Shown here in pieces: positions 4,716 to 45,000 of a DNA stretch of 64,000 nt (position 1 is its first letter; every line of letters begins with the position of its first letter). Position numbers and translations under genes: made by a program. The stretch is taken from IMG/VR virus record IMGVR_UViG_3300009158_000043; one strand, given 5' to 3'. A model generated the notes under the pieces. It saw nothing but the letters and a program-made list of their open reading frames with translations. It was not told where the DNA came from and did not search any database. This stretch comes from an uncultured virus (IMG/VR IMGVR_UViG_3300009158_000043). Its lineage: Duplodnaviria; Heunggongvirae; Uroviricota; Caudoviricetes.

Positions 4716-5213
4716 ATGAAATATATTAAATTATGGGAAGATCATTCAGAGGAACAGGGAGAATTCCTTAAGCGGATCGGTGCGGTTCTTGGTATTACTG
4801 GCCACTCGGATGAACTTGAGACTCTACTTAATTATGCTGCTCGTTCTCTTGGTACAGATACTGACTCTATTGAGTTGAAGGAGATTAGTGCGGATGAGCT
4901 GGCCCGGATTACTCAGGGTTGGCAGTGCCTTGGTTCAGTTGACTTGGCTGCCTTTGGTCACCTTGGCGGGGTCACTGGTCTAGAGTACGGGGAACGAATA
5001 ACTCCGGCAGAGTATGCGACTGTTCTGCAAAGGATCGAGACGGAGAGCCCAGAGTTATTTAAGAAGGACGGAGCATTTAAGTCTACCCGTGCATTTTGGC
5101 AGTGGATTGCTCGGAGACGGGAACTCACCAAGGAGTGGAGGTTTGTGATTGCAACTGGTCCGGCCGGTATATTTCTTATGTGGGAGAAGGGCACCTCACC
5201 AAGGATCCCCTAG
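4716..5213 (+). CDS. Hypothetical, putative head-internal protein
   Basis: 165 aa; N-terminus MKYIKLWED. Confidence 0.75.
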   Translation: MKYIKLWEDHSEEQGEFLKRIGAVLGITGHSDELETLLNYAARSLGTDTDSIELKEISADELARITQGWQCLGSVDLAAFGHLGGVTGLEYGERITPAEYATVLQRIETESPELFKKDGAFKSTRAFWQWIARRRELTKEWRFVIATGPAGIFLMWEKGTSPRIP

Positions 5214-25061: not shown

Positions 25062-25144
25062 ATTACTACGTAACTCATGGTGAAGTTACGTGTGTTTACC
25101 GTTTATATTTGTGCTTTCGTTTCATTTTTATTTTTTTCTTTTTT

Positions 25145-25220
25145 TGGTTGAAGCAGTGAGACTCGAACTCACGATAACTAGTTTGTAATACTAGGACTTT
25201 TGCCACTAAGCTATGCTTCA
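25145..25220 (-). tRNA. tRNA-Val(TAC), CCA encoded, atypical acceptor
   Basis: Loop ATTACAA; TGAAGCA/TGCTTCA. Confidence 0.8.
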
Positions 25221-25233
25221 ATATGTACTAAAT

Positions 25234-25264
25234 AAAAAACCTCGAATTTTTTAGGTTCGAGGTT
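25234..25264 (-). terminator. Attenuator terminator upstream of tRNA-Val
   Basis: AACCTCGAA-loop-TTCGAGGTT plus T run. Confidence 0.8.
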
Positions 25265-25291
25265 CTTTGTAAAACAATATTATATGTTTAA

Positions 25292-25399
25292 TTACTCGAA
25301 CCTCTTTATACTAGCGCCTTTTAGCGTTTGCACAAACTTCACTCCTGTTGGAATATGATTCCAATTGCGAGATAACGATATGTTTGAATAATTTTTCAT
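25292..25399 (-). CDS. 35-aa putative leader peptide
   Basis: MKNYSNISLSRNWNHIPTGVKFVQTLKGASIKRFE; its last codons are complementary to the terminator 5' arm and loop. Confidence 0.65.
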   Translation of the reverse strand: MKNYSNISLSRNWNHIPTGVKFVQTLKGASIKRFE

Positions 25400-25447
25400 T
25401 TTATACTATTATTTATACTTAAACCGATTGAACAGTTTCACTTTTTG

Positions 25448-25960
25448 TTAATTTCTTCCATTTAATTGTTCATGAATGTAATTATATGCATCAATTACGC
25501 TCACACGAAGATCGTCAATTGTACCAGTATTTGCAATTATCACATCTGAATATTTTTCAACATCGATATTCATAGACTCTTGTGATTCACGTGGCAATCT
25601 TGGATTTATAACACCAATGATCGCATCAAATACGTGTTGTTTAATACATGCAGTCAATTCCACTTGACTTCGCATGCCGACATACACATCTGCACGTTTC
25701 ACAATATCTTTTGCTAATCGCGCTTGATCCGCAGAATTATATGCACAAATTAAGTCATACCATTCAGCTCGGTGATTTGCGCGATCATTAAAACATTCTT
25801 CGATATCGCGATATCCATATTTTTCTTTTAGAACATCAAATACAAAAATTGATGAAGATGCTTCTGAACTTGCTAGATGCGTTAATCCAAATTCTTCTTC
25901 TAATATTGCAGCGACTGTATCTTTACCGTGCCTTCCGTGACCTAAGATTAATAACTTCAT
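25448..25960 (-). CDS. dNMP kinase-like P-loop protein
   Basis: LGHGRHGKDT Walker A; GMR. Confidence 0.8.
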   Translation of the reverse strand: MKLLILGHGRHGKDTVAAILEEEFGLTHLASSEASSSIFVFDVLKEKYGYRDIEECFNDRANHRAEWYDLICAYNSADQARLAKDIVKRADVYVGMRSQVELTACIKQHVFDAIIGVINPRLPRESQESMNIDVEKYSDVIIANTGTIDDLRVSVIDAYNYIHEQLNGRN

Positions 25961-25969
25961 TTAATTTAG

Positions 25970-26041
25970 TAGTCCCAACGAGAATCGAACTCGTGTTTCT
26001 AGGATGAAAACCTAACGTCCTTACCCCTAGACGATGGGACC
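25970..26041 (-). tRNA. tRNA-Glu(TTC)
   Basis: Loop TTTTCAT. Confidence 0.9.
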
Positions 26042-26046
26042 AAGTA

Positions 26047-26180
26047 AACCAGAGAAAATTGTGAGAGTGTTATCTAGTGCTACCGTTACACCATACATCG
26101 TTTCCGATGCACTGGGATTCGAACCCAGACTTCTTTTGTTTAGAAAAAAATTGAAGTAACTCTCAACATTACTACTGATT
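26047..26180 (-). ncRNA. Y-RNA-like RNA 1 (permuted tRNA module)
   Basis: Paired ends; TAGTAA..GAGAGTTACTTC; T arm, GAAA-capped acceptor-like stem, then D arm. Confidence 0.8.
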
Positions 26181-26190
26181 TATATTTTTG

Positions 26191-26263
26191 AGCGAAAGAC
26201 CGGGTTCGAACCGGCCACCCTCAGCTTGGAAGGCTGACGCTCTACCAAATGAGCTACTTTCGC
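26191..26263 (-). tRNA. tRNA-Gly(TCC)
   Basis: Loop CTTCCAA. Confidence 0.9.
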
Positions 26264-26335
26264 GGTTAGATCGAACGAATTGCTGGTCCCGGCACTATAT
26301 CCAGCATTTGGCGGGATATTCGATCTATTATAATT

Positions 26336-26474
26336 TAAGACGAGAAATTGAATAGAGGTTGTTTTTCTAAAACAAGTTATGAGCTTGTCGACTGACCATT
26401 TGTCTAATCTGCCATGGGGCAAATATTGGATTCGAACCAATAAATTGAAGTAACTCTAATCTTGCTACGTCTTA
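26336..26474 (-). ncRNA. Y-RNA-like RNA 2
   Basis: TAAGACG/CGTCTTA ends; TAGCAA..TAGAGTTACTTC; T arm before D arm. Confidence 0.8.
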
Positions 26475-26482
26475 TTAATGTT

Positions 26483-26620
26483 TAGGTAAAGAAAGTTTCC
26501 GATCGTATGTTTAGCGCTCTATCCACTGAGCTACAGACGGCCTCTCAGCCATCCGACGGGATTTGAACCCGCGACCTCTCGTTTACAAGACGAAGTAACG
26601 ATCATGATTACTATTACCTA
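26483..26620 (-). ncRNA. Y-RNA-like RNA 3
   Basis: TAGGTAA/TTACCTA ends; GATCGTTACTTC; anticodon-like arm, T arm, closed acceptor, D arm. Confidence 0.8.
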
Positions 26621-26628
26621 TAATAAGT

Positions 26629-26757
26629 TTATCAGGAGAAAATTGCAAAGGTGTACGGCTTGCGCCGCTTCGGGGGAGTTGAACCCCCAACCCATTTTTT
26701 TGCAGAAAATTGCTCAACCATTGAGCTAGAAGTAACCTTTACGTTGCTACCTGATAA
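26629..26757 (-). ncRNA. Y-RNA-like RNA 4
   Basis: TTATCAGG/CCTGATAA ends; AAAGGTTACTTC; D, anticodon and T arms in normal order plus a GCAA hairpin. Confidence 0.8.
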
Positions 26758-26784
26758 TAATATTTTTCAAAGAACTAATATTTT

Positions 26785-26875
26785 AAATTATTGAGGTAAA
26801 GTTGCCTAGAGTGTCGTTTTTGGTTTTTTCCTATAAAAGTTAGAAGTAACTCTTTAGCTTGCCACTCAATAATTT
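26785..26875 (-). ncRNA. Y-RNA-like RNA 5 (minimal, no tRNA module)
   Basis: AAATTATTGAG/CTCAATAATTT ends; TGGCAA..AGAGTTACTTC; A-rich loop. Confidence 0.75.
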
Positions 26876-26882
26876 ATTTTTG

Positions 26883-26985
26883 TTACCGAAGCAGGATTCG
26901 AACCTGCGGTCATTGGAGTATTGGTGTTAGGTCACCACTCCTCAGACTATTCCTAATTAGCATTAAGCCGCTCTGCCATTCAGCA
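26883..26985 (-). ncRNA. tRNA-like RNA without a canonical anticodon arm
   Basis: Acceptor TGCTGAA/TTCGGTA, D arm, T arm GCAGG-TTCGAAT-CCTGC; about 53-nt atypical middle. Confidence 0.6.
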
Positions 26986-26998
26986 ATCTTGTGATTGA

Positions 26999-28624
26999 TT
27001 AGATCACAATTTTCTTCACCTTATCTAGGTGGTAATTTGGATTGAACTCGCTTTTCGCGATATCATCGAACATTGAATATCCGTAACCGTAGTAGAAGCG
27101 AACTTTATCTCCTGCGAGTTGAGTTGTTCCATATGCAGCTAAGTCTACTGAGTACACATATGGGCTACCACATGCTTTTACGTAACTCATATAAGAGCTA
27201 TAACTTGATCCGCGATTACATTCGTTATCAGAAAGGATGAAAATACGATCATACTTACGTCCTGATCTTTGTGCTTCCATCCAAGCTGAAGCTAAACTTG
27301 TACCACCCATGCTTGATTTCATCGCTGATGCGATTGAGAATACGTCAGAATTTGCATTCCATTTTACATATTCAGCATGTGAACCGAAACGGATTATATC
27401 TCCATTTGTTGCCTTTGCAATGGTTGCTGCGATTAACGCTGCTTTATCCATACAGGTGCTAGTATAGTTTGTCTTACGCATTGGGTCCAATACTCGAGTA
27501 GTCATAGATCCTGAGAAATCGACCATCACCAATGTTCTACCTGGAAGCATCTCGGCCAAATTTGGAACAGCCGATTCATAACCTGCAAGTAATGCTTTCG
27601 CAACCTTACGGCTATCTACCGTGCTGAACTCAGCATTAGTTACTTCGTGTGCTAAATCTAATTGGTATGGCATAACCTTACCTTTTCGGATCGATTCCGC
27701 ATCTGAAAGTAGAGCACATAGTTTATCAACAGTTGTTGCTTTGCTTACAGTTTTCAACACGTTTCTGATGTTTCGGATAGCTGCAAGAATTCCAAGTTTG
27801 TTCTCAGTTAAGAGGGCATCCCAGTTTTCTGCCTTTGCTTCTTTCAACACTTCTGCGGCTTTTGCTTCATCGAGCTTTCCTTCTTTGACAGCTTTTGCAA
27901 CTTCTTGACCAGCATCAGATTGAGCAACTTCCCATGTATCTGCTGAAACGTTTTCACCTTTCATGATGGCAGAAAGAACTGCTACTTTTTCTCCGTTCAC
28001 ATCTGCAAGAGCTTTAGACTCCTTTGGATTTGGGTGAACTAGGTTGATGACGTCGACTAGTGAACTTTTATATTTCAATAGTGAGTAAGAATCTAATTTT
28101 TCAAGTGCTTCTTTGAAACCTTTCTTCATTGCATTGGTCACGGCAGTCTTGTTCATTGCTGAGAAGCATGCGATAATTTCTGACATGTCGTCTGGTCTGA
28201 AAAGAGTTCCGCCTGACTGTGTTTTCTTATTCCACAATGAGTAGAATCGTTTTGCCCAATCTTGTCCAGCACAGTGTGGTGCTAAGTAGCTTGCAGCTAA
28301 ATGGTTTACTGAGCGCATTCCTTCGCCAACGCAACGTGAATACACGATACATTGTGCAGTGAAGTACGCATCTTCTTTTGCACAGTCATCAATTAGAGTT
28401 TTAATCTCCTTCATCGTTTCAGTTTCTGAACGATAGAATTGGTTCTCTAATTTTAGAGTGTTTAACATAGTCAAGAGCTTCAACCACTTATCAAGTGAGT
28501 AAGCATCATTTCCTTGACGGTTCTTAGCGTCTGGTTTTGGCAGGTTTACAGCCTCAACTAGCTTCACATCAGGTTGCATAGTAGCAAGTGTGTTGCGAAG
28601 ATTCTTGTTTCTGAATTTTGTCAT
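26999..28624 (-). CDS. Ro60/TROVE-domain RNA-binding protein with C-terminal vWA domain
   Basis: NRQG..AY, ENQFY, GMRS, RPDDMSE, LVHPNP, TWE, AIRNIRN, DFSGSM (MIDAS), ILSDNE. Confidence 0.92.
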   Translation of the reverse strand: MTKFRNKNLRNTLATMQPDVKLVEAVNLPKPDAKNRQGNDAYSLDKWLKLLTMLNTLKLENQFYRSETETMKEIKTLIDDCAKEDAYFTAQCIVYSRCVGEGMRSVNHLAASYLAPHCAGQDWAKRFYSLWNKKTQSGGTLFRPDDMSEIIACFSAMNKTAVTNAMKKGFKEALEKLDSYSLLKYKSSLVDVINLVHPNPKESKALADVNGEKVAVLSAIMKGENVSADTWEVAQSDAGQEVAKAVKEGKLDEAKAAEVLKEAKAENWDALLTENKLGILAAIRNIRNVLKTVSKATTVDKLCALLSDAESIRKGKVMPYQLDLAHEVTNAEFSTVDSRKVAKALLAGYESAVPNLAEMLPGRTLVMVDFSGSMTTRVLDPMRKTNYTSTCMDKAALIAATIAKATNGDIIRFGSHAEYVKWNANSDVFSIASAMKSSMGGTSLASAWMEAQRSGRKYDRIFILSDNECNRGSSYSSYMSYVKACGSPYVYSVDLAAYGTTQLAGDKVRFYYGYGYSMFDDIAKSEFNPNYHLDKVKKIVI

Positions 28625-28656
28625 ACTTTTAGTACAAGGTTTTACTTTTTTTGTTT

Positions 28657-29046
28657 TTATTCTTGCTCACTCGAGTTTGCAAAGAAGTGTAATAGTGAAC
28701 GGATATTTCTCTGTTCGCTAGTTAGGCGATCATAGTCGATTCTTCGTTCTTGAATCTCTTTTTGTATTGCAGCATTTTTATCTCTTAATTCAATAAGATC
28801 TAAATCGCTACTTGTAATCTCAATAAATGCTGCTTCTCTTGCATCTGCATTCGAATAGACTTTCTTTCCAGCGTCATCAACTTTTGAATTGATTTCACTT
28901 TTAAGTGTTGTCTCAGTATTTGAAATCTCGGTGGAGACTTCTTGAGATTTTTGAGTTTTTCCAAGAATCTGTAATTGCACATCGGCAATTTCTTGCGGTA
29001 AACTCAATAACCTATTGCTTAATTCTGATAGTTTTTCGTTATTCAT
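28657..29046 (-). CDS. Coiled-coil hypothetical protein upstream of Ro60
   Basis: 129 aa; KKVYSNADAREA. Confidence 0.75.
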   Translation of the reverse strand: MNNEKLSELSNRLLSLPQEIADVQLQILGKTQKSQEVSTEISNTETTLKSEINSKVDDAGKKVYSNADAREAAFIEITSSDLDLIELRDKNAAIQKEIQERRIDYDRLTSEQRNIRSLLHFFANSSEQE

Positions 29047-29084
29047 AAAGTTATTATACTATGAATTTGAGCAATATTAAATTT

Positions 29085-29243
29085 TTTGTCAGAGAAAATT
29101 GCAAAAGCCGTTTTTCTTGTAAGCGAGCTACCACTGCTCTACCACGGCAAGTAATTTTTTAGTTGTGCCGTGGGATGGATTCGAACCACCGACCTCTTCC
29201 TTATAATGGATTTCGAAGTAACTTTTACGTTGCTACTGACAAA
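29085..29243 (-). ncRNA. Y-RNA-like RNA 6
   Basis: TTTGTCAG/CTGACAAA ends; TAGCAA..AAAAGTTACTTC; T arm, closed acceptor CCACGGCA/TGCCGTGG, D arm. Confidence 0.8.
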
Positions 29244-29244
29244 G

Positions 29245-29318
29245 TTGCGATGGAGTGGATTCGAACCACTGATTTCAAGCTTATGAGGCTTGTGAGATGA
29301 CCGCTTCTCTACCCCGCA
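29245..29318 (-). tRNA. tRNA(CAT), initiator-like but atypical
   Basis: TGCGGGG start; loop CTCATAA; lacks the three G-C pairs in the anticodon stem. Confidence 0.7.
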
Positions 29319-29332
29319 ATATATTTTTTTCG

Positions 29333-29406
29333 TAGCGAAATCGGGAATTGAACCCGAGACCTCAGGGTTATGAATCCTGCGCTCTACCGACTGAGCTACC
29401 TCGCCA
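29333..29406 (-). tRNA. tRNA-Met(CAT), elongator
   Basis: Loop TTCATAA. Confidence 0.9.
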
Positions 29407-29456
29407 TTTTTCTACCTAATCTCCAGCCTTCTGGTATAAGTACAAAATATTCCCGG

Positions 29457-29530
29457 CGGTCCGTACGGGGCTCGAACCCGTGATCTCCTACGTGACAGGC
29501 AGGCGTCCACTCCATCTGGACTGACAGACC
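29457..29530 (-). tRNA. tRNA-Asp(GTC)
   Basis: Loop CTGTCAC. Confidence 0.9.
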
Positions 29531-29538
29531 AATAAAAC

Positions 29539-29569
29539 AAAAAACCTCAACTTTATGGGTTGAGGTTTT
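29539..29569 (-). terminator. Attenuator terminator upstream of tRNA-Asp
   Basis: AAAACCTCAAC-loop-GTTGAGGTTTT plus further T. Confidence 0.8.
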
Positions 29570-29593
29570 CAGATTTGAAATATCTTATAAAAC

Positions 29594-29680
29594 TCAACTT
29601 CGATGCACACAATCACGATCTGTCCCTACCTCTAATGAAGGTATGAAACTGCGTTCGATCATATTTTTGAAGATTTGCAT
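29594..29680 (-). CDS. 28-aa putative leader peptide
   Basis: MQIFKNMIERSFIPSLEVGTDRDCVHRS; stop lies within GTTGAG, complementary to the terminator 5' arm. Confidence 0.6.
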   Translation of the reverse strand: MQIFKNMIERSFIPSLEVGTDRDCVHRS

Positions 29681-29980
29681 CTGCCGGTTGTTTATTTTTT
29701 ATTATTTATACTCAAAAACTAAAAAGATTTTAAGTTTATGTTAAACTTTTTTCTGGGTGTAAATATACTACTTATTTTTGAATCTAACAATTGAAGCAAA
29801 AATTAATGTGAACCAGTAAAATATTTGTCACGTAAATATTGATTCCAGGCCTCGCGTTTATTACCATTGATAAAAAACCAGCCGATGTGTAATTCAAAAA
29901 ATTTTACTATTTCATATTTCATAAAGTAATAATACTATTTAATCTATAACAATAAAACTTTTTTGTTAAATTTTTATTAT

Positions 29981-36391: not shown

Positions 36392-36425
36392 TGTTAATTC
36401 AATTTTTTATTATTTATCTGATAAA

Positions 36426-40212: not shown

Positions 40213-40266
40213 GAGAATAGTCTTTTTATTATTTATCGCGAGGATAAATAAAATAAAGTATTTTTC

Positions 40267-44880: not shown

Positions 44881-45000
44881 TAATACAGAATCTTTCTTAT
44901 TATTTATCTAGACTACACAGGTTAGTTTTTAATTATCTTTTCAAAAAGAGAACTGCAGTTTCTTAAATAGCGGTTGTAATATTTATCTAAACGCTTGAAA

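What the first reader, a model, noticed from the sequence alone, without database searches (positions are those of the whole stretch)
25234..25417. Leader-peptide attenuator in front of a tRNA block
Seen: promoter-like TATAAATA (25410-25417), a 35-codon ORF whose last codons read GAGGTTCGAG-TAA, then an intrinsic terminator whose 5' arm and loop read CTCGAACCT, then tRNA-Val. The leader end can pair with the terminator arm as an antiterminator. Known: in ribosome-mediated attenuation, a ribosome reaching the stop masks the antiterminator and allows termination. Inference: tRNA genes are read through when translation stalls. The leader has mixed codons, so it may sense general translation failure such as host tRNA cleavage.
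Basis: partly seen in the sequence, partly recalled or inferred. Interest (0 to 1): 0.8.

Follow-up and report, generated by a model that had tools for sequence, protein, structure and literature searches.

The report
Leader-peptide attenuator before phage tRNAs
A tiny translated reading frame and a switchable transcription stop sit directly in front of a lake phage's tRNA genes, so the phage probably lets transcription run into these tRNAs only when ribosomes are slow to finish the tiny frame; this control is textbook for amino-acid genes, and I found no paper describing it for tRNA genes.

Summary
The parts in order are a GTATAAATAATA box, a 35-codon ORF, a 9-base copy of the terminator's 3' arm ending at the stop codon, a 13-pair hairpin with a T-run, and tRNA-Val 13 bases later.

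The unit is not a one-off. A second unit of the same build precedes tRNA-Asp (29711-29540). Related uncultured jumbo phages carry three unrelated leader families, all with the stop codon 24-27 bases before the hairpin.

The bases GAGGTTC at the end of the window's leader family are invariant in 13 variants but are read in three different reading frames. The antiterminator helix shows one compensatory change in this family and two in the relatives' Cys-block family.

That Cys-block leader is half made of codons read by its own downstream tRNAs (Cys, His, Leu, Arg; P about 1e-6 to 3e-4). The window's two leaders show no such codon match, so what they sense is open. No expression data exist.

Most likely this is a ribosome-mediated transcription attenuator gating phage tRNA genes. 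That would be a new variant of a known kind.

Earlier notes of this scan describe the same idea on other DNA. My literature searches found no paper on it.

The parts
25407..25418 (-). promoter-like box GTATAAATAATA (contains TATAAATA)
   Evidence: exact 12-mer 3 times in the window, all on the minus strand in the tRNA region; the core ATAAATA lies 0-45 nt upstream of 18 of 77 long ORFs, against 1.4% of random positions. The transcription start is not mapped.
25292..25399 (-). leader ORF, 35 codons plus TAA
   Evidence: Homologous ORFs of 35-43 codons are open in 13 of 13 distinct variants, while the other frames carry 0-5 stops. There is no excess of third-position change: 14, 16 and 18 of 42 columns vary.
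25295..25303 (-). region 2: antiterminator 5' strand, ending at the stop codon
   Evidence: 9-nt perfect complement, reached in 3 of 1000 shuffles. GAGGTT is invariant in 13 variants; it is read in three different frames.
25234..25268 (-). intrinsic terminator: 5' arm 25268-25256, loop 25255-25247, 3' arm and T-run 25246-25234. The 5' arm is shared with the antiterminator.
   Evidence: hairpin -13.5 kcal/mol against alternative antiterminator fold -14.3. The exact 27-base core is found in 15 IMG/VR contigs. 95.8% of cells are paired in 13 variants.
25145..25220 (-). tRNA-Val(UAC), first gene downstream, 13 nt after the T-run
29700..29711 (-). second unit: the same GTATAAATAATA box
29594..29680 (-). 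second unit: leader ORF, 28 codons plus TGA. The stop lies inside the strand GTTGAG(TTTT) at 29598-29589, which is complementary to the terminator arm.
   Evidence: A diverged relative (L033/L044) has the same length and a similar peptide. The complement alone is weak: a 6-nt run, reached in 337 of 1000 shuffles.
29540..29570 (-). second unit: terminator hairpin (12 pairs, loop 7) with T-run, 9 nt before tRNA-Asp
29455..29530 (-). tRNA-Asp(GUC), followed by two CAU-anticodon tRNAs

Best explanation
This is a ribosome-mediated (leader-peptide) transcription attenuator that gates read-through from a phage promoter into tRNA genes.

Proposed sequence of events:
1. RNA polymerase starts near the GTATAAATAATA box and transcribes a 35-codon leader.
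2. The last 9 bases of the leader ORF can pair with the 5' arm of the terminator that follows.
3. If no ribosome covers the ORF end when the polymerase makes the terminator, this antiterminator helix holds the arm. The terminator hairpin then cannot form, and transcription runs on into tRNA-Val and beyond.
4. If a ribosome has reached the last codons or the stop, it masks that strand. The terminator forms and the transcript ends 13 bases before the tRNA.

Slow or stalled translation of the leader therefore turns the tRNA genes on.

Shown here: the sequence anatomy, its recurrence, its conservation and some covariation.
Inferred: translation of the ORF, termination at the hairpin, the direction of the switch, and the signal.

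In a relatives' unit the signal is probably supply of the very tRNAs encoded downstream. For the window's two units the signal is unknown, and may be overall decoding speed.
For: 1. Anatomy is at the stated coordinates. The 9-nt complement ending at the stop was reached in 3 of 1000 shuffles.

2. Recurrence. In the tRNA regions of the window and of five related phage records, 11 of 13 hairpin-plus-T-run sites lie 7-31 nt upstream of the first tRNA of a block. These 11 are orthologues of three unit families, not 11 independent cases. Ten of the 11 are preceded by a small ORF whose stop lies 24-27 nt before the hairpin. The ORFs belong to three unrelated peptide families. The window's minus strand has no terminator after any tRNA block.

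3. RNA-level constraint. GAGGTT is invariant in 13 distinct variants of the window's family, amid variable flanks. It is read in three different frames.

4. The antiterminator helix.
- Window's family: 100% of 103 cells paired, with 7 invariant pairs and 1 compensatory pair (C-G in 12 variants, U-A in 1).
- Relatives' Cys-block family: 96.3% paired, 2 of 9 pairs compensatory, 0 of 500 shuffles reach the covariation score, and slid controls give 56% or less.

5. In all 10 units, the minimum-energy fold of the transcript cut before the 3' arm pairs the 5' arm with the ORF end. The antiterminator and terminator folds are of like stability: -14.3 against -13.5 kcal/mol in the window, and for the other unit types folded (Phe, Cys, L044 Val) -15.6 to -17.7 against -11.8 to -21.0; the two Asp units are the exception (see evidence against).

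6. Ribosome-mask model. For the window's unit the arm is sequestered at 0.67-0.72 with the A site anywhere in codons 2-29 or with no ribosome. It falls to 0.12-0.28 over the last seven positions, stop codon included.

7. Translation. The ORF frame is open in 13 of 13 and 6 of 6 variants, although indels shift the frame locally.

8. Codon logic elsewhere.
- The relatives' 23-codon leader before tRNA Cys-His-Leu-(Leu)-Arg-Arg has 9-11 of 22 codons read by those tRNAs, against a background of 7-13% (P 1e-6 to 3e-4).
- In cultured Cellulophaga phage phi4:1_13, a 22-codon ORF before Pro-Glu-Gln-His-Leu-Leu-Arg has 11 of 21 cognate codons (P 0.0015).
- In the same phage, a 27-codon ORF before an 11-tRNA block has 23 of 26 residues of that block's amino acids (P 0.0005).
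- Each of these two ORFs is followed by a terminator just before the tRNA.
Against: - Nothing here shows a transcript end, a start site or translation.
- For the window's Val unit alone, the ensemble pairing measure is not beyond chance (35 of 200 shuffles).
- For the window's Asp unit, the complement is only 6 WC bases (337 of 1000 shuffles). Its antiterminator fold is weaker than the terminator (-8.5 against -13.7).
- Covariation in the window's own family rests on one pair in one lineage (37 of 500 shuffles). The other seven pairs never vary, which says nothing either way.
- The window's leaders are not enriched in codons of their downstream tRNAs: 2 of 34 (P 0.2) and 4 of 27 (P 0.27).
- There is no Shine-Dalgarno sequence. 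If the box is a -10 element, the mRNA would be nearly leaderless.
- In the Phe-type relatives, a ribosome parked at the stop leaves the strand largely exposed. The strand lies 21 to 14 nt before the stop, and the model gives 0.66.
- The equilibrium model also predicts read-through for untranslated RNA. The role of the 1:2 pairing is therefore unclear in the window's family, where it is a 4-bp helix.
- In the window only one intact tRNA follows before two endonuclease genes.
Confidence: 0.6

Rival explanations
1. This is an ordinary small phage gene with its own promoter and an ordinary terminator. The tRNAs are made by constitutive leak through the terminator, and the complementarity between ORF end and arm has no function.
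For: - Small ORFs and terminators are common in phage genomes.
- The window's units show no codon match.
- The ensemble pairing test was not significant for this unit (35 of 200) or for the Asp unit by the WC-run measure (337 of 1000).
- The core residues NWN(Q/H)xPxG are conserved in all 13 variants. That could mean a working peptide.
Against: - The stop-to-hairpin spacing is fixed at 24-27 nt in three unrelated families.
- GAGGTT is invariant in three reading frames.
- There are compensatory changes in the ORF-end/arm helix.
- The leader shows no third-position excess of change (14, 16 and 18 of 42 columns).
- Terminators sit before, and never after, the tRNA blocks of the window.
Confidence: 0.2
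2. The hairpin and T-run are not a regulated stop. They could be a 3' end or stability element of a small RNA made from the leader. They could be an insulator against upstream transcription, with the tRNA having its own start overlapping the T-run. Or they could be a processing landmark for the tRNA 5' end.
For: - The hairpin core is more conserved than anything around it: the exact 27-mer is found in 15 contigs.
- One relative (L045) keeps promoter-like DNA plus the hairpin without the ORF.
- Five of seven unit types read TTTTTTG after the stem. This faintly recalls the Bacteroidota -7 box, a motif I recalled and did not test.
Against: - Only 7-16 nt separate the T-run from the tRNA in the 10 units with a leader ORF, too few for a separate promoter.
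- The three hairpin families share no sequence that could be a common promoter.
- The reading frame is maintained in every variant, which a non-coding RNA would not need.
- L045 also carries a truncated tRNA remnant, so it looks like a deletion product.
Confidence: 0.1
3. The switch has the opposite polarity, as in pyrBI. A ribosome following the polymerase closely reaches the stop and sterically blocks the terminator hairpin, so efficient translation gives read-through and slow translation gives termination.
For: Terminator efficiency depends on the distance between stop codon and hairpin, and is still sequence-dependent around 17-18 nt (PMC4824070, passages read). Here the spacer after the stop is 21-24 nt, near that boundary.
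Against: - In that paper efficiency is near its maximum beyond about 27-30 nt and was already about 0.8 at 18 nt in one series.
- This model gives no role to the conserved and covarying complement between ORF end and arm.
- Making tRNAs only when translation is already fast has no evident use.
Confidence: 0.05

Closest known systems
Leader-peptide transcription attenuators of amino-acid operons (trp, his, leu, pheA type; recalled from textbooks)
   Same: Promoter, short translated leader, intrinsic terminator, and an alternative helix that uses the terminator's 5' arm and is masked by a ribosome finishing the leader. In the relatives' Cys-block unit there are also regulatory codons and a 1:2 helix.
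   Different: The regulated genes are tRNAs, not biosynthetic enzymes. The element is in a phage. The window's leaders carry no run of one codon. No Rfam leader family matches: Thr_leader scored 26.6 bits against a threshold of 55.
Multivalent attenuators (thr, ilvGMEDA, ilvBN leaders; recalled)
   Same: The leader mixes codons for several amino acids, and the switch answers to any of them. The Cys-His-Leu-Arg leader of relatives and the phi4:1 leaders fit this pattern.
   Different: The codons match the anticodons of tRNA genes downstream, not the products of a pathway. The feedback would be on tRNA supply itself.
Translation-stall sensors with non-specific leaders (ermC- and cat-type leaders; antibiotic-responsive attenuators found by Term-seq; recalled). 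PMC2965389 mentions ermC as sensing global slowdown (passage read).
   Same: A leader without amino-acid specificity that reports general ribosome slowdown.
   Different: Those leaders control resistance genes and often act on translation. Here the output is transcription into tRNA genes, and no stall-inducing ligand is known.
T-box riboswitches
   Same: They couple the tRNA state to an antiterminator/terminator choice.
   Different: T-boxes bind uncharged tRNA directly, need no ORF and precede aminoacyl-tRNA synthetase or amino-acid genes. The Rfam search listed no T-box match.
pyrBI attenuator
   Same: The position of the leader's stop codon relative to a terminator matters.
   Different: There the ribosome itself blocks the hairpin and there is no antiterminator helix. 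Here the stop lies 21-24 nt upstream and a complementary strand is conserved.

Membership tests
Leader-peptide (ribosome-mediated) transcription attenuator | Short ORF between a promoter and the regulated genes | tested here: met
   ORF 25399..25292 lies behind a recurrent upstream box. It is open in 13 of 13 variants. Translation itself is not shown.
Leader-peptide (ribosome-mediated) transcription attenuator | Intrinsic terminator between the leader ORF and the regulated gene | tested here: met
   A 13-pair hairpin with T6 sits 13 nt before tRNA-Val. It is conserved, with 95.8% of cells paired. Termination is not shown.
Leader-peptide (ribosome-mediated) transcription attenuator | Antiterminator helix, mutually exclusive with the terminator, whose 5' strand a terminating ribosome can cover | tested here: met
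   The 9-nt complement ends at the stop (3 of 1000 shuffles). It forms in the truncated-transcript fold of all 10 units. 100% of cells are paired with 1 compensatory pair. The Cys family has 2 compensatory pairs. The mask model agrees.
Leader-peptide (ribosome-mediated) transcription attenuator | Anti-antiterminator (1:2) pairing inside the leader | tested here: inconclusive
   In the window's family RNAalifold finds only a 4-bp GAAC:GTTC helix. In the Cys family two helices are 91.7% and 100% paired with 1 compensatory pair. The equilibrium model lets 2:3 win even without a ribosome.
Leader-peptide (ribosome-mediated) transcription attenuator | Regulatory codons cognate to what the operon supplies | tested here: not met
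   Window units: 2 of 34 (P 0.2) and 4 of 27 (P 0.27). The feature is met in the relatives' Cys-block leader (P 1e-6 to 3e-4) and in two phi4:1 units.
Leader-peptide (ribosome-mediated) transcription attenuator | Read-through depends on translation of the leader | not testable with these tools
   No RNA data are available. This needs reporters or 3'-end mapping.
Rfam leader and riboswitch families (Thr_leader, T-box and others) | Score at or above the family's gathering threshold | tested here: not met
   only tRNAs pass. Thr_leader scored 26.6 bits against 55 on the terminator alone. No T-box match is listed.
pyrBI-type ribosome-occlusion attenuator | Leader stop codon within reach of the terminator hairpin, and no antiterminator | tested here: not met
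   The stop lies 24-27 nt before the hairpin base in all 10 units. An antiterminator strand is present.

The most novel reading that the evidence does not exclude
Large phages of freshwater and marine bacteria run their tRNA arrays under feedback control by decoding capacity. Each tRNA block sits behind a short test frame and a switchable terminator.

Some test frames are written in exactly the codons that the block's tRNAs read. Examples are Cys-His-Leu-Arg in the window's relatives and Pro-Glu-Gln-His-Leu-Arg in cultured Cellulophaga phage phi4:1.

Others, like the two in this window, are broad-spectrum frames that report any slowdown. Such a slowdown could come from codon-usage mismatch, or from host shut-off or cleavage of tRNAs.

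The phage would then make spare tRNAs only when and where the host pool fails.
Probability: 0.4. Interest if true: 0.85.

Novelty: new variant of a known kind. Interest (0 to 1): 0.75.

Why it matters
Why phages carry tRNA genes has been argued for decades. The proposed reasons include codon compensation, host tRNA decay, and escape from anticodon nucleases (PMC10264068, passages read).

A leader-peptide switch in front of tRNA blocks would show that their expression is conditional on how well ribosomes decode. That makes the question directly testable.

It would also extend classical attenuation to a new class of regulated gene: the decoding machinery sensing itself.

Two further points follow.
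- Many 'hypothetical' mini-genes inside phage tRNA arrays could be re-annotated as leaders.
- The same build in a cultured phage-host pair (Cellulophaga phage phi4:1) offers a bench system.

Tried and rejected
- **Own assembly.** It is not held. The nearest record, G001, gave no match to the 1.2-kb query, although L032 from that record carries the Asp unit unchanged.
- **Cultured phages by DNA.** Only tRNA-Glu matched.
- **Rfam.** No family covers the leader.
- **RNA data.** No RNA holder is listed among 16 runs. DNA contigs of 4 runs laid on 25100-29800 showed no variant inside 25234-25417, so they gave no extra covariation.
- **Pattern scans.**
  - The back-translated WN(Q/H)xPxG pattern gave 14 true relatives and 2 chance hits inside large genes.
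  - The metagenome scan listed 24 loci. By my reading of the printed flanks, about ten carry the leader with its hairpin (L068, L069, L071 with duplicates L074 and L080, L075 with duplicate L082, L077, L078, L079 with duplicate L085). The rest lie inside larger genes and look like chance hits.
  - The generic architecture pattern found nothing in 5 records.
  - L066 was a chance hit.
- **Codon match.** It was not significant for the Val/Phe and Asp families, nor for phi4:1 unit C.
- **Split tRNA.** A search for the missing 3' half of the broken tRNA-Lys found none. An intron-split tRNA was therefore rejected in favour of disruption by an inserted gene.
- One search aligned the wrong strand and length and was not used. 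One search used a terminator register off by one. One search had the wrong length. One search is the correct count.
- **Amino-acid diversity test.** It stays open.
- **Literature.** Searches on tRNA genes with leader peptide, attenuation, antiterminator, pheU/pheV, phage tRNA clusters and the T5 tRNA region found no paper describing attenuators before tRNA genes. I saw only listings and abstracts, apart from passages of PMC2965389, PMC4824070 and PMC10264068. Older subscription papers are not in that library.

Full report
**Setting**

The window is AT-rich phage DNA.
- It carries 28 tRNA genes, all on the minus strand, between 19575 and 29530.
- Homing-endonuclease genes lie among them.
- There is a T4-type large terminase. 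Its nearest relatives are uncultured huge phages (33-36% identity), Flavobacterium phage MaF61 and the Lak phages.
- The window's own assembly is not held.
- The runs that share half or more of the sampled words are labelled freshwater and lake-water metagenomes (X1 0.98, X2 0.58; smaller shares were not used to name a habitat).
- The host is unknown.

**The observation**

Read on the minus strand, the finding region holds these parts in order:
- GTATAAATAATA at 25418-25407.
- An ATG at 25399 opening a 35-codon frame that ends AGGTTCGAG-TAA at 25303-25292.
- A 23-base spacer.
- A hairpin: 5' arm 25268-25256, nine-base loop, 3' arm running into six T's at 25246-25234.
- tRNA-Val(UAC) from 25220.

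The nine bases before the stop are the exact complement of 25261-25253, which is the arm plus the first loop bases. A complement that long arose in 3 of 1000 dinucleotide shuffles of the leader.

The box is not an isolated match.
- The exact 12-mer occurs three times, always on this strand in the tRNA region.
- Its core ends 0-45 bases (mostly 15-24) before the start of 18 of 77 long ORFs. Only 1.4% of random positions have this.
- It is therefore this phage's common upstream signal. TATAAATA is also the T4 late-promoter consensus, which I recall and did not test.

**It recurs**

A second unit of the same build lies 4.3 kb upstream:
- The same box at 29711-29700.
- A 28-codon ORF at 29680-29594 whose TGA lies inside GTTGAG.
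- A hairpin at 29570-29540 whose 3' arm begins GTTGAGG.
- tRNA-Asp nine bases later.

I fetched the tRNA regions of five related phage records of 180-270 kb and scanned them together with the window.
- 11 of 13 hairpin-plus-T-run sites outside tRNAs lie 7-31 bases before the first tRNA of a block. These are orthologues of three unit families, so they are not 11 independent cases.
- In 10 of them a small ORF ends 24-27 bases before the hairpin.
- The ORFs fall into three unrelated families: the window's family (35-43 codons, before tRNA-Val or tRNA-Phe), the Asp family (28 codons) and a Cys family (23 codons).
- The window's minus strand has about eight good terminators. The only two in the tRNA region both stand before a tRNA, and none stands after one.

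**The leader end is conserved as RNA, not as peptide**

I collected 13 distinct variants of the window's family from viral and metagenome contigs.
- GAGGTT is invariant while its flanks vary.
- It is read as AAG-AGG-TTC in the window, as CGA-GGT-TCn in the Phe-type phages and as GAG-GTT-CGA in a third lineage.
- Its pairing with the terminator's 5' arm holds in 100% of 103 cells. Seven pairs never vary and one is compensatory: C-G in 12 variants and U-A in one lineage. 37 of 500 shuffles did as well.
- The terminator itself is invariant.

So in the finding's own family there is strong conservation but only thin covariation.

The frame is nevertheless kept. It is open in 13 of 13 variants, while the other frames hold 0-5 stops. 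The stop keeps its distance from the hairpin although local indels shift the frame. Change is spread evenly over codon positions, with 14, 16 and 18 of 42 columns varying. That fits a frame that must be translated but whose amino acids mostly do not matter. An invariant core, NWN(Q/H)xPxG, is unexplained. It overlaps a small conserved hairpin.

**The relatives' Cys-block leader is a textbook attenuator**

I compared six variants.
- The ORF-end/arm helix is 96.3% paired, with two adjacent compensatory pairs. No shuffle of 500 reaches its covariation score, and slid controls give 56% or less.
- The terminator is 97.4% paired with three compensatory pairs.
- RNAalifold independently finds a 1:2 structure that pairs codons 5-11 with the ORF end. 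The whole consensus structure (1:2, inner hairpin and terminator) has seven compensatory pairs.
- Its 22 sense codons after the start include 9-11 that are read by the downstream tRNAs Cys, His, Leu, (Leu), Arg, Arg. The background is 7-13%, giving P from 1e-6 to 3e-4 for three variants that are related, not independent.

**How it would work**

- In every one of the 10 units, the minimum-energy fold of the nascent RNA cut just before the 3' arm pairs the 5' arm with the ORF end.
- With the small hairpin that the spacer forms, this antiterminator is as stable as the terminator: -14.3 against -13.5 kcal/mol in the window's Val unit, and -15.6 to -17.7 against -11.8 to -21.0 in the other unit types folded (Phe, Cys, L044 Val).
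- The two Asp units are weaker: the window's is -8.5 against -13.7 and the relative's -7.2 against -13.7.
- I forbade pairing of the 30 bases around a ribosome's A site. For the window's Val unit the arm stays sequestered at 0.67-0.72 while the ribosome is absent or on codons 2-29. It is freed, at 0.12-0.28, over the last seven positions, stop codon included. The other units behave alike.

Finishing the leader in step with the polymerase gives termination, and lagging or stalling gives read-through into the tRNAs.

These are equilibrium folds. The real choice is kinetic, and nothing here measures it.

**What speaks against, or is missing**

- The ensemble pairing measure for the window's Val unit is within chance (35 of 200 shuffles).
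- The Asp unit's complement is short (337 of 1000).
- Neither window leader is enriched in codons of its own tRNAs (P 0.2 and 0.27). 'What is sensed' is therefore open for this window.
- In the Phe-type relatives, a ribosome parked at the stop would leave the strand largely exposed.
- There is no Shine-Dalgarno sequence and the start site is unmapped.
- Only one intact tRNA follows the Val leader before two endonuclease genes.

**Rivals**

- *Plain small gene plus leaky terminator.* It does not explain the fixed spacing, the frame-independent conservation or the compensatory pairs.
- *pyrBI-like occlusion switch.* It fits the spacing poorly. In E. coli, termination is near its maximum beyond about 27-30 nt and was already about 0.8 at 18 nt in one construct series (PMC4824070, passages). 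It also gives the complement no role.
- *Small RNA, insulator or processing landmark.* It would not need a maintained frame.

**Outside support**

Cultured Cellulophaga phage phi4:1_13 was reached through a tRNA-Glu match. It has the same build.
- A 22-codon ORF before tRNA Pro-Glu-Gln-His-Leu-Leu-Arg has 11 of 21 cognate codons (P 0.0015).
- A 27-codon ORF before an 11-tRNA block has 23 of 26 residues of that block's amino acids (P 0.0005 by amino acid, 0.068 by strict wobble).
- Each is followed by a terminator just before the tRNA.
- A third small ORF there shows no match.

After I had reached my reading (note), a look-up showed that earlier notes of this scan describe the same idea on other phage and bacterial DNA. 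These are unchecked AI notes, not independent evidence.

**Known or new**

The mechanism class is the classical leader-peptide attenuator.

I found no description of it in front of tRNA genes, in phage or otherwise, in six full-text searches. That library lacks most older subscription papers, including the 1980s work on the phage T5 and E. coli tRNA-Phe loci. I recall that work only vaguely and could not check it.

I rate the finding a new variant of a known kind.

Noticed in passing
window 25125-25066 (- strand): A 9-codon mini-ORF with 4 Lys codons of 8 (P 0.003 against a Lys background of 8.9%) lies after tRNA-Val, followed 2-4 nt later by a hairpin without a T-run. It stands before what was tRNA-Lys(UUU). 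The mini-ORF and a covarying hairpin are kept before tRNA-Lys in relatives L044, L035 and L038. It may be a second kind of translation-coupled element.
   Followed up: partly
window 25061-25026 and about 24363-24294 (- strand): Only the 5' half of tRNA-Lys(UUU) and the 3' two-thirds of tRNA-Lys(CUU) remain. The DNA between them is the 224-aa ORF 25027-24353, which has a weak HNH-endonuclease match. This phage has no intact tRNA-Lys among its 28 tRNAs, whereas relative L044 has both.
   Followed up: partly
window 26999-28624, 26513-26579 and 26883-26985 (- strand): A 541-aa ORF matches the phage RNA-binding protein family phrog_850; I read it as Ro/TROVE-like, which is my impression and was not tested. 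Near it are a weak Y-RNA-like (YrlA) match at 28.1 bits (E 0.008, below threshold) and an odd 103-nt tRNA-like match. Together they look like a phage Ro-Y RNA module.
   Followed up: no
whole window, e.g. 40242-40253 (+), 44898-44909 (-), 36408-36419 (-): A recurrent box, RATAAATAATAAAAA, ends 15-24 nt before the start codons of many long ORFs: 18 of 77 ORFs against 1.4% of random positions. It is probably the phage's main promoter or 5' signal.
   Followed up: partly
window 19673-19655 (- strand): An 8-pair hairpin followed by TTTTAT lies 7 nt before tRNA-His, inside the gap after tRNA-Ser(GCU). I saw no clear leader ORF.
   Followed up: no
L045 (record G006) 5039-5114: A natural variant keeps the upstream promoter-like DNA and the same hairpin but lacks the leader ORF and carries a truncated tRNA-Phe remnant. 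It looks like a deletion product.
   Followed up: no
alignment A3 columns 39-55 (window about 25362-25345): A small hairpin (CTGGA...TCCGG type) overlaps the invariant W-N-Q/H-x-P codons of the leader, with one compensatory pair in the window's sequence. It could be a polymerase pause hairpin, or the reason the peptide core looks conserved.
   Followed up: no
L104 (Cellulophaga phage phi4:1_13) 11700-11851 and 12620-12825: Two units in a cultured phage share a 40-base upstream stretch, a codon-matched mini-ORF and a terminator 6 nt before the tRNA. One mini-ORF is unannotated and the other is annotated with a different start.
   Followed up: partly
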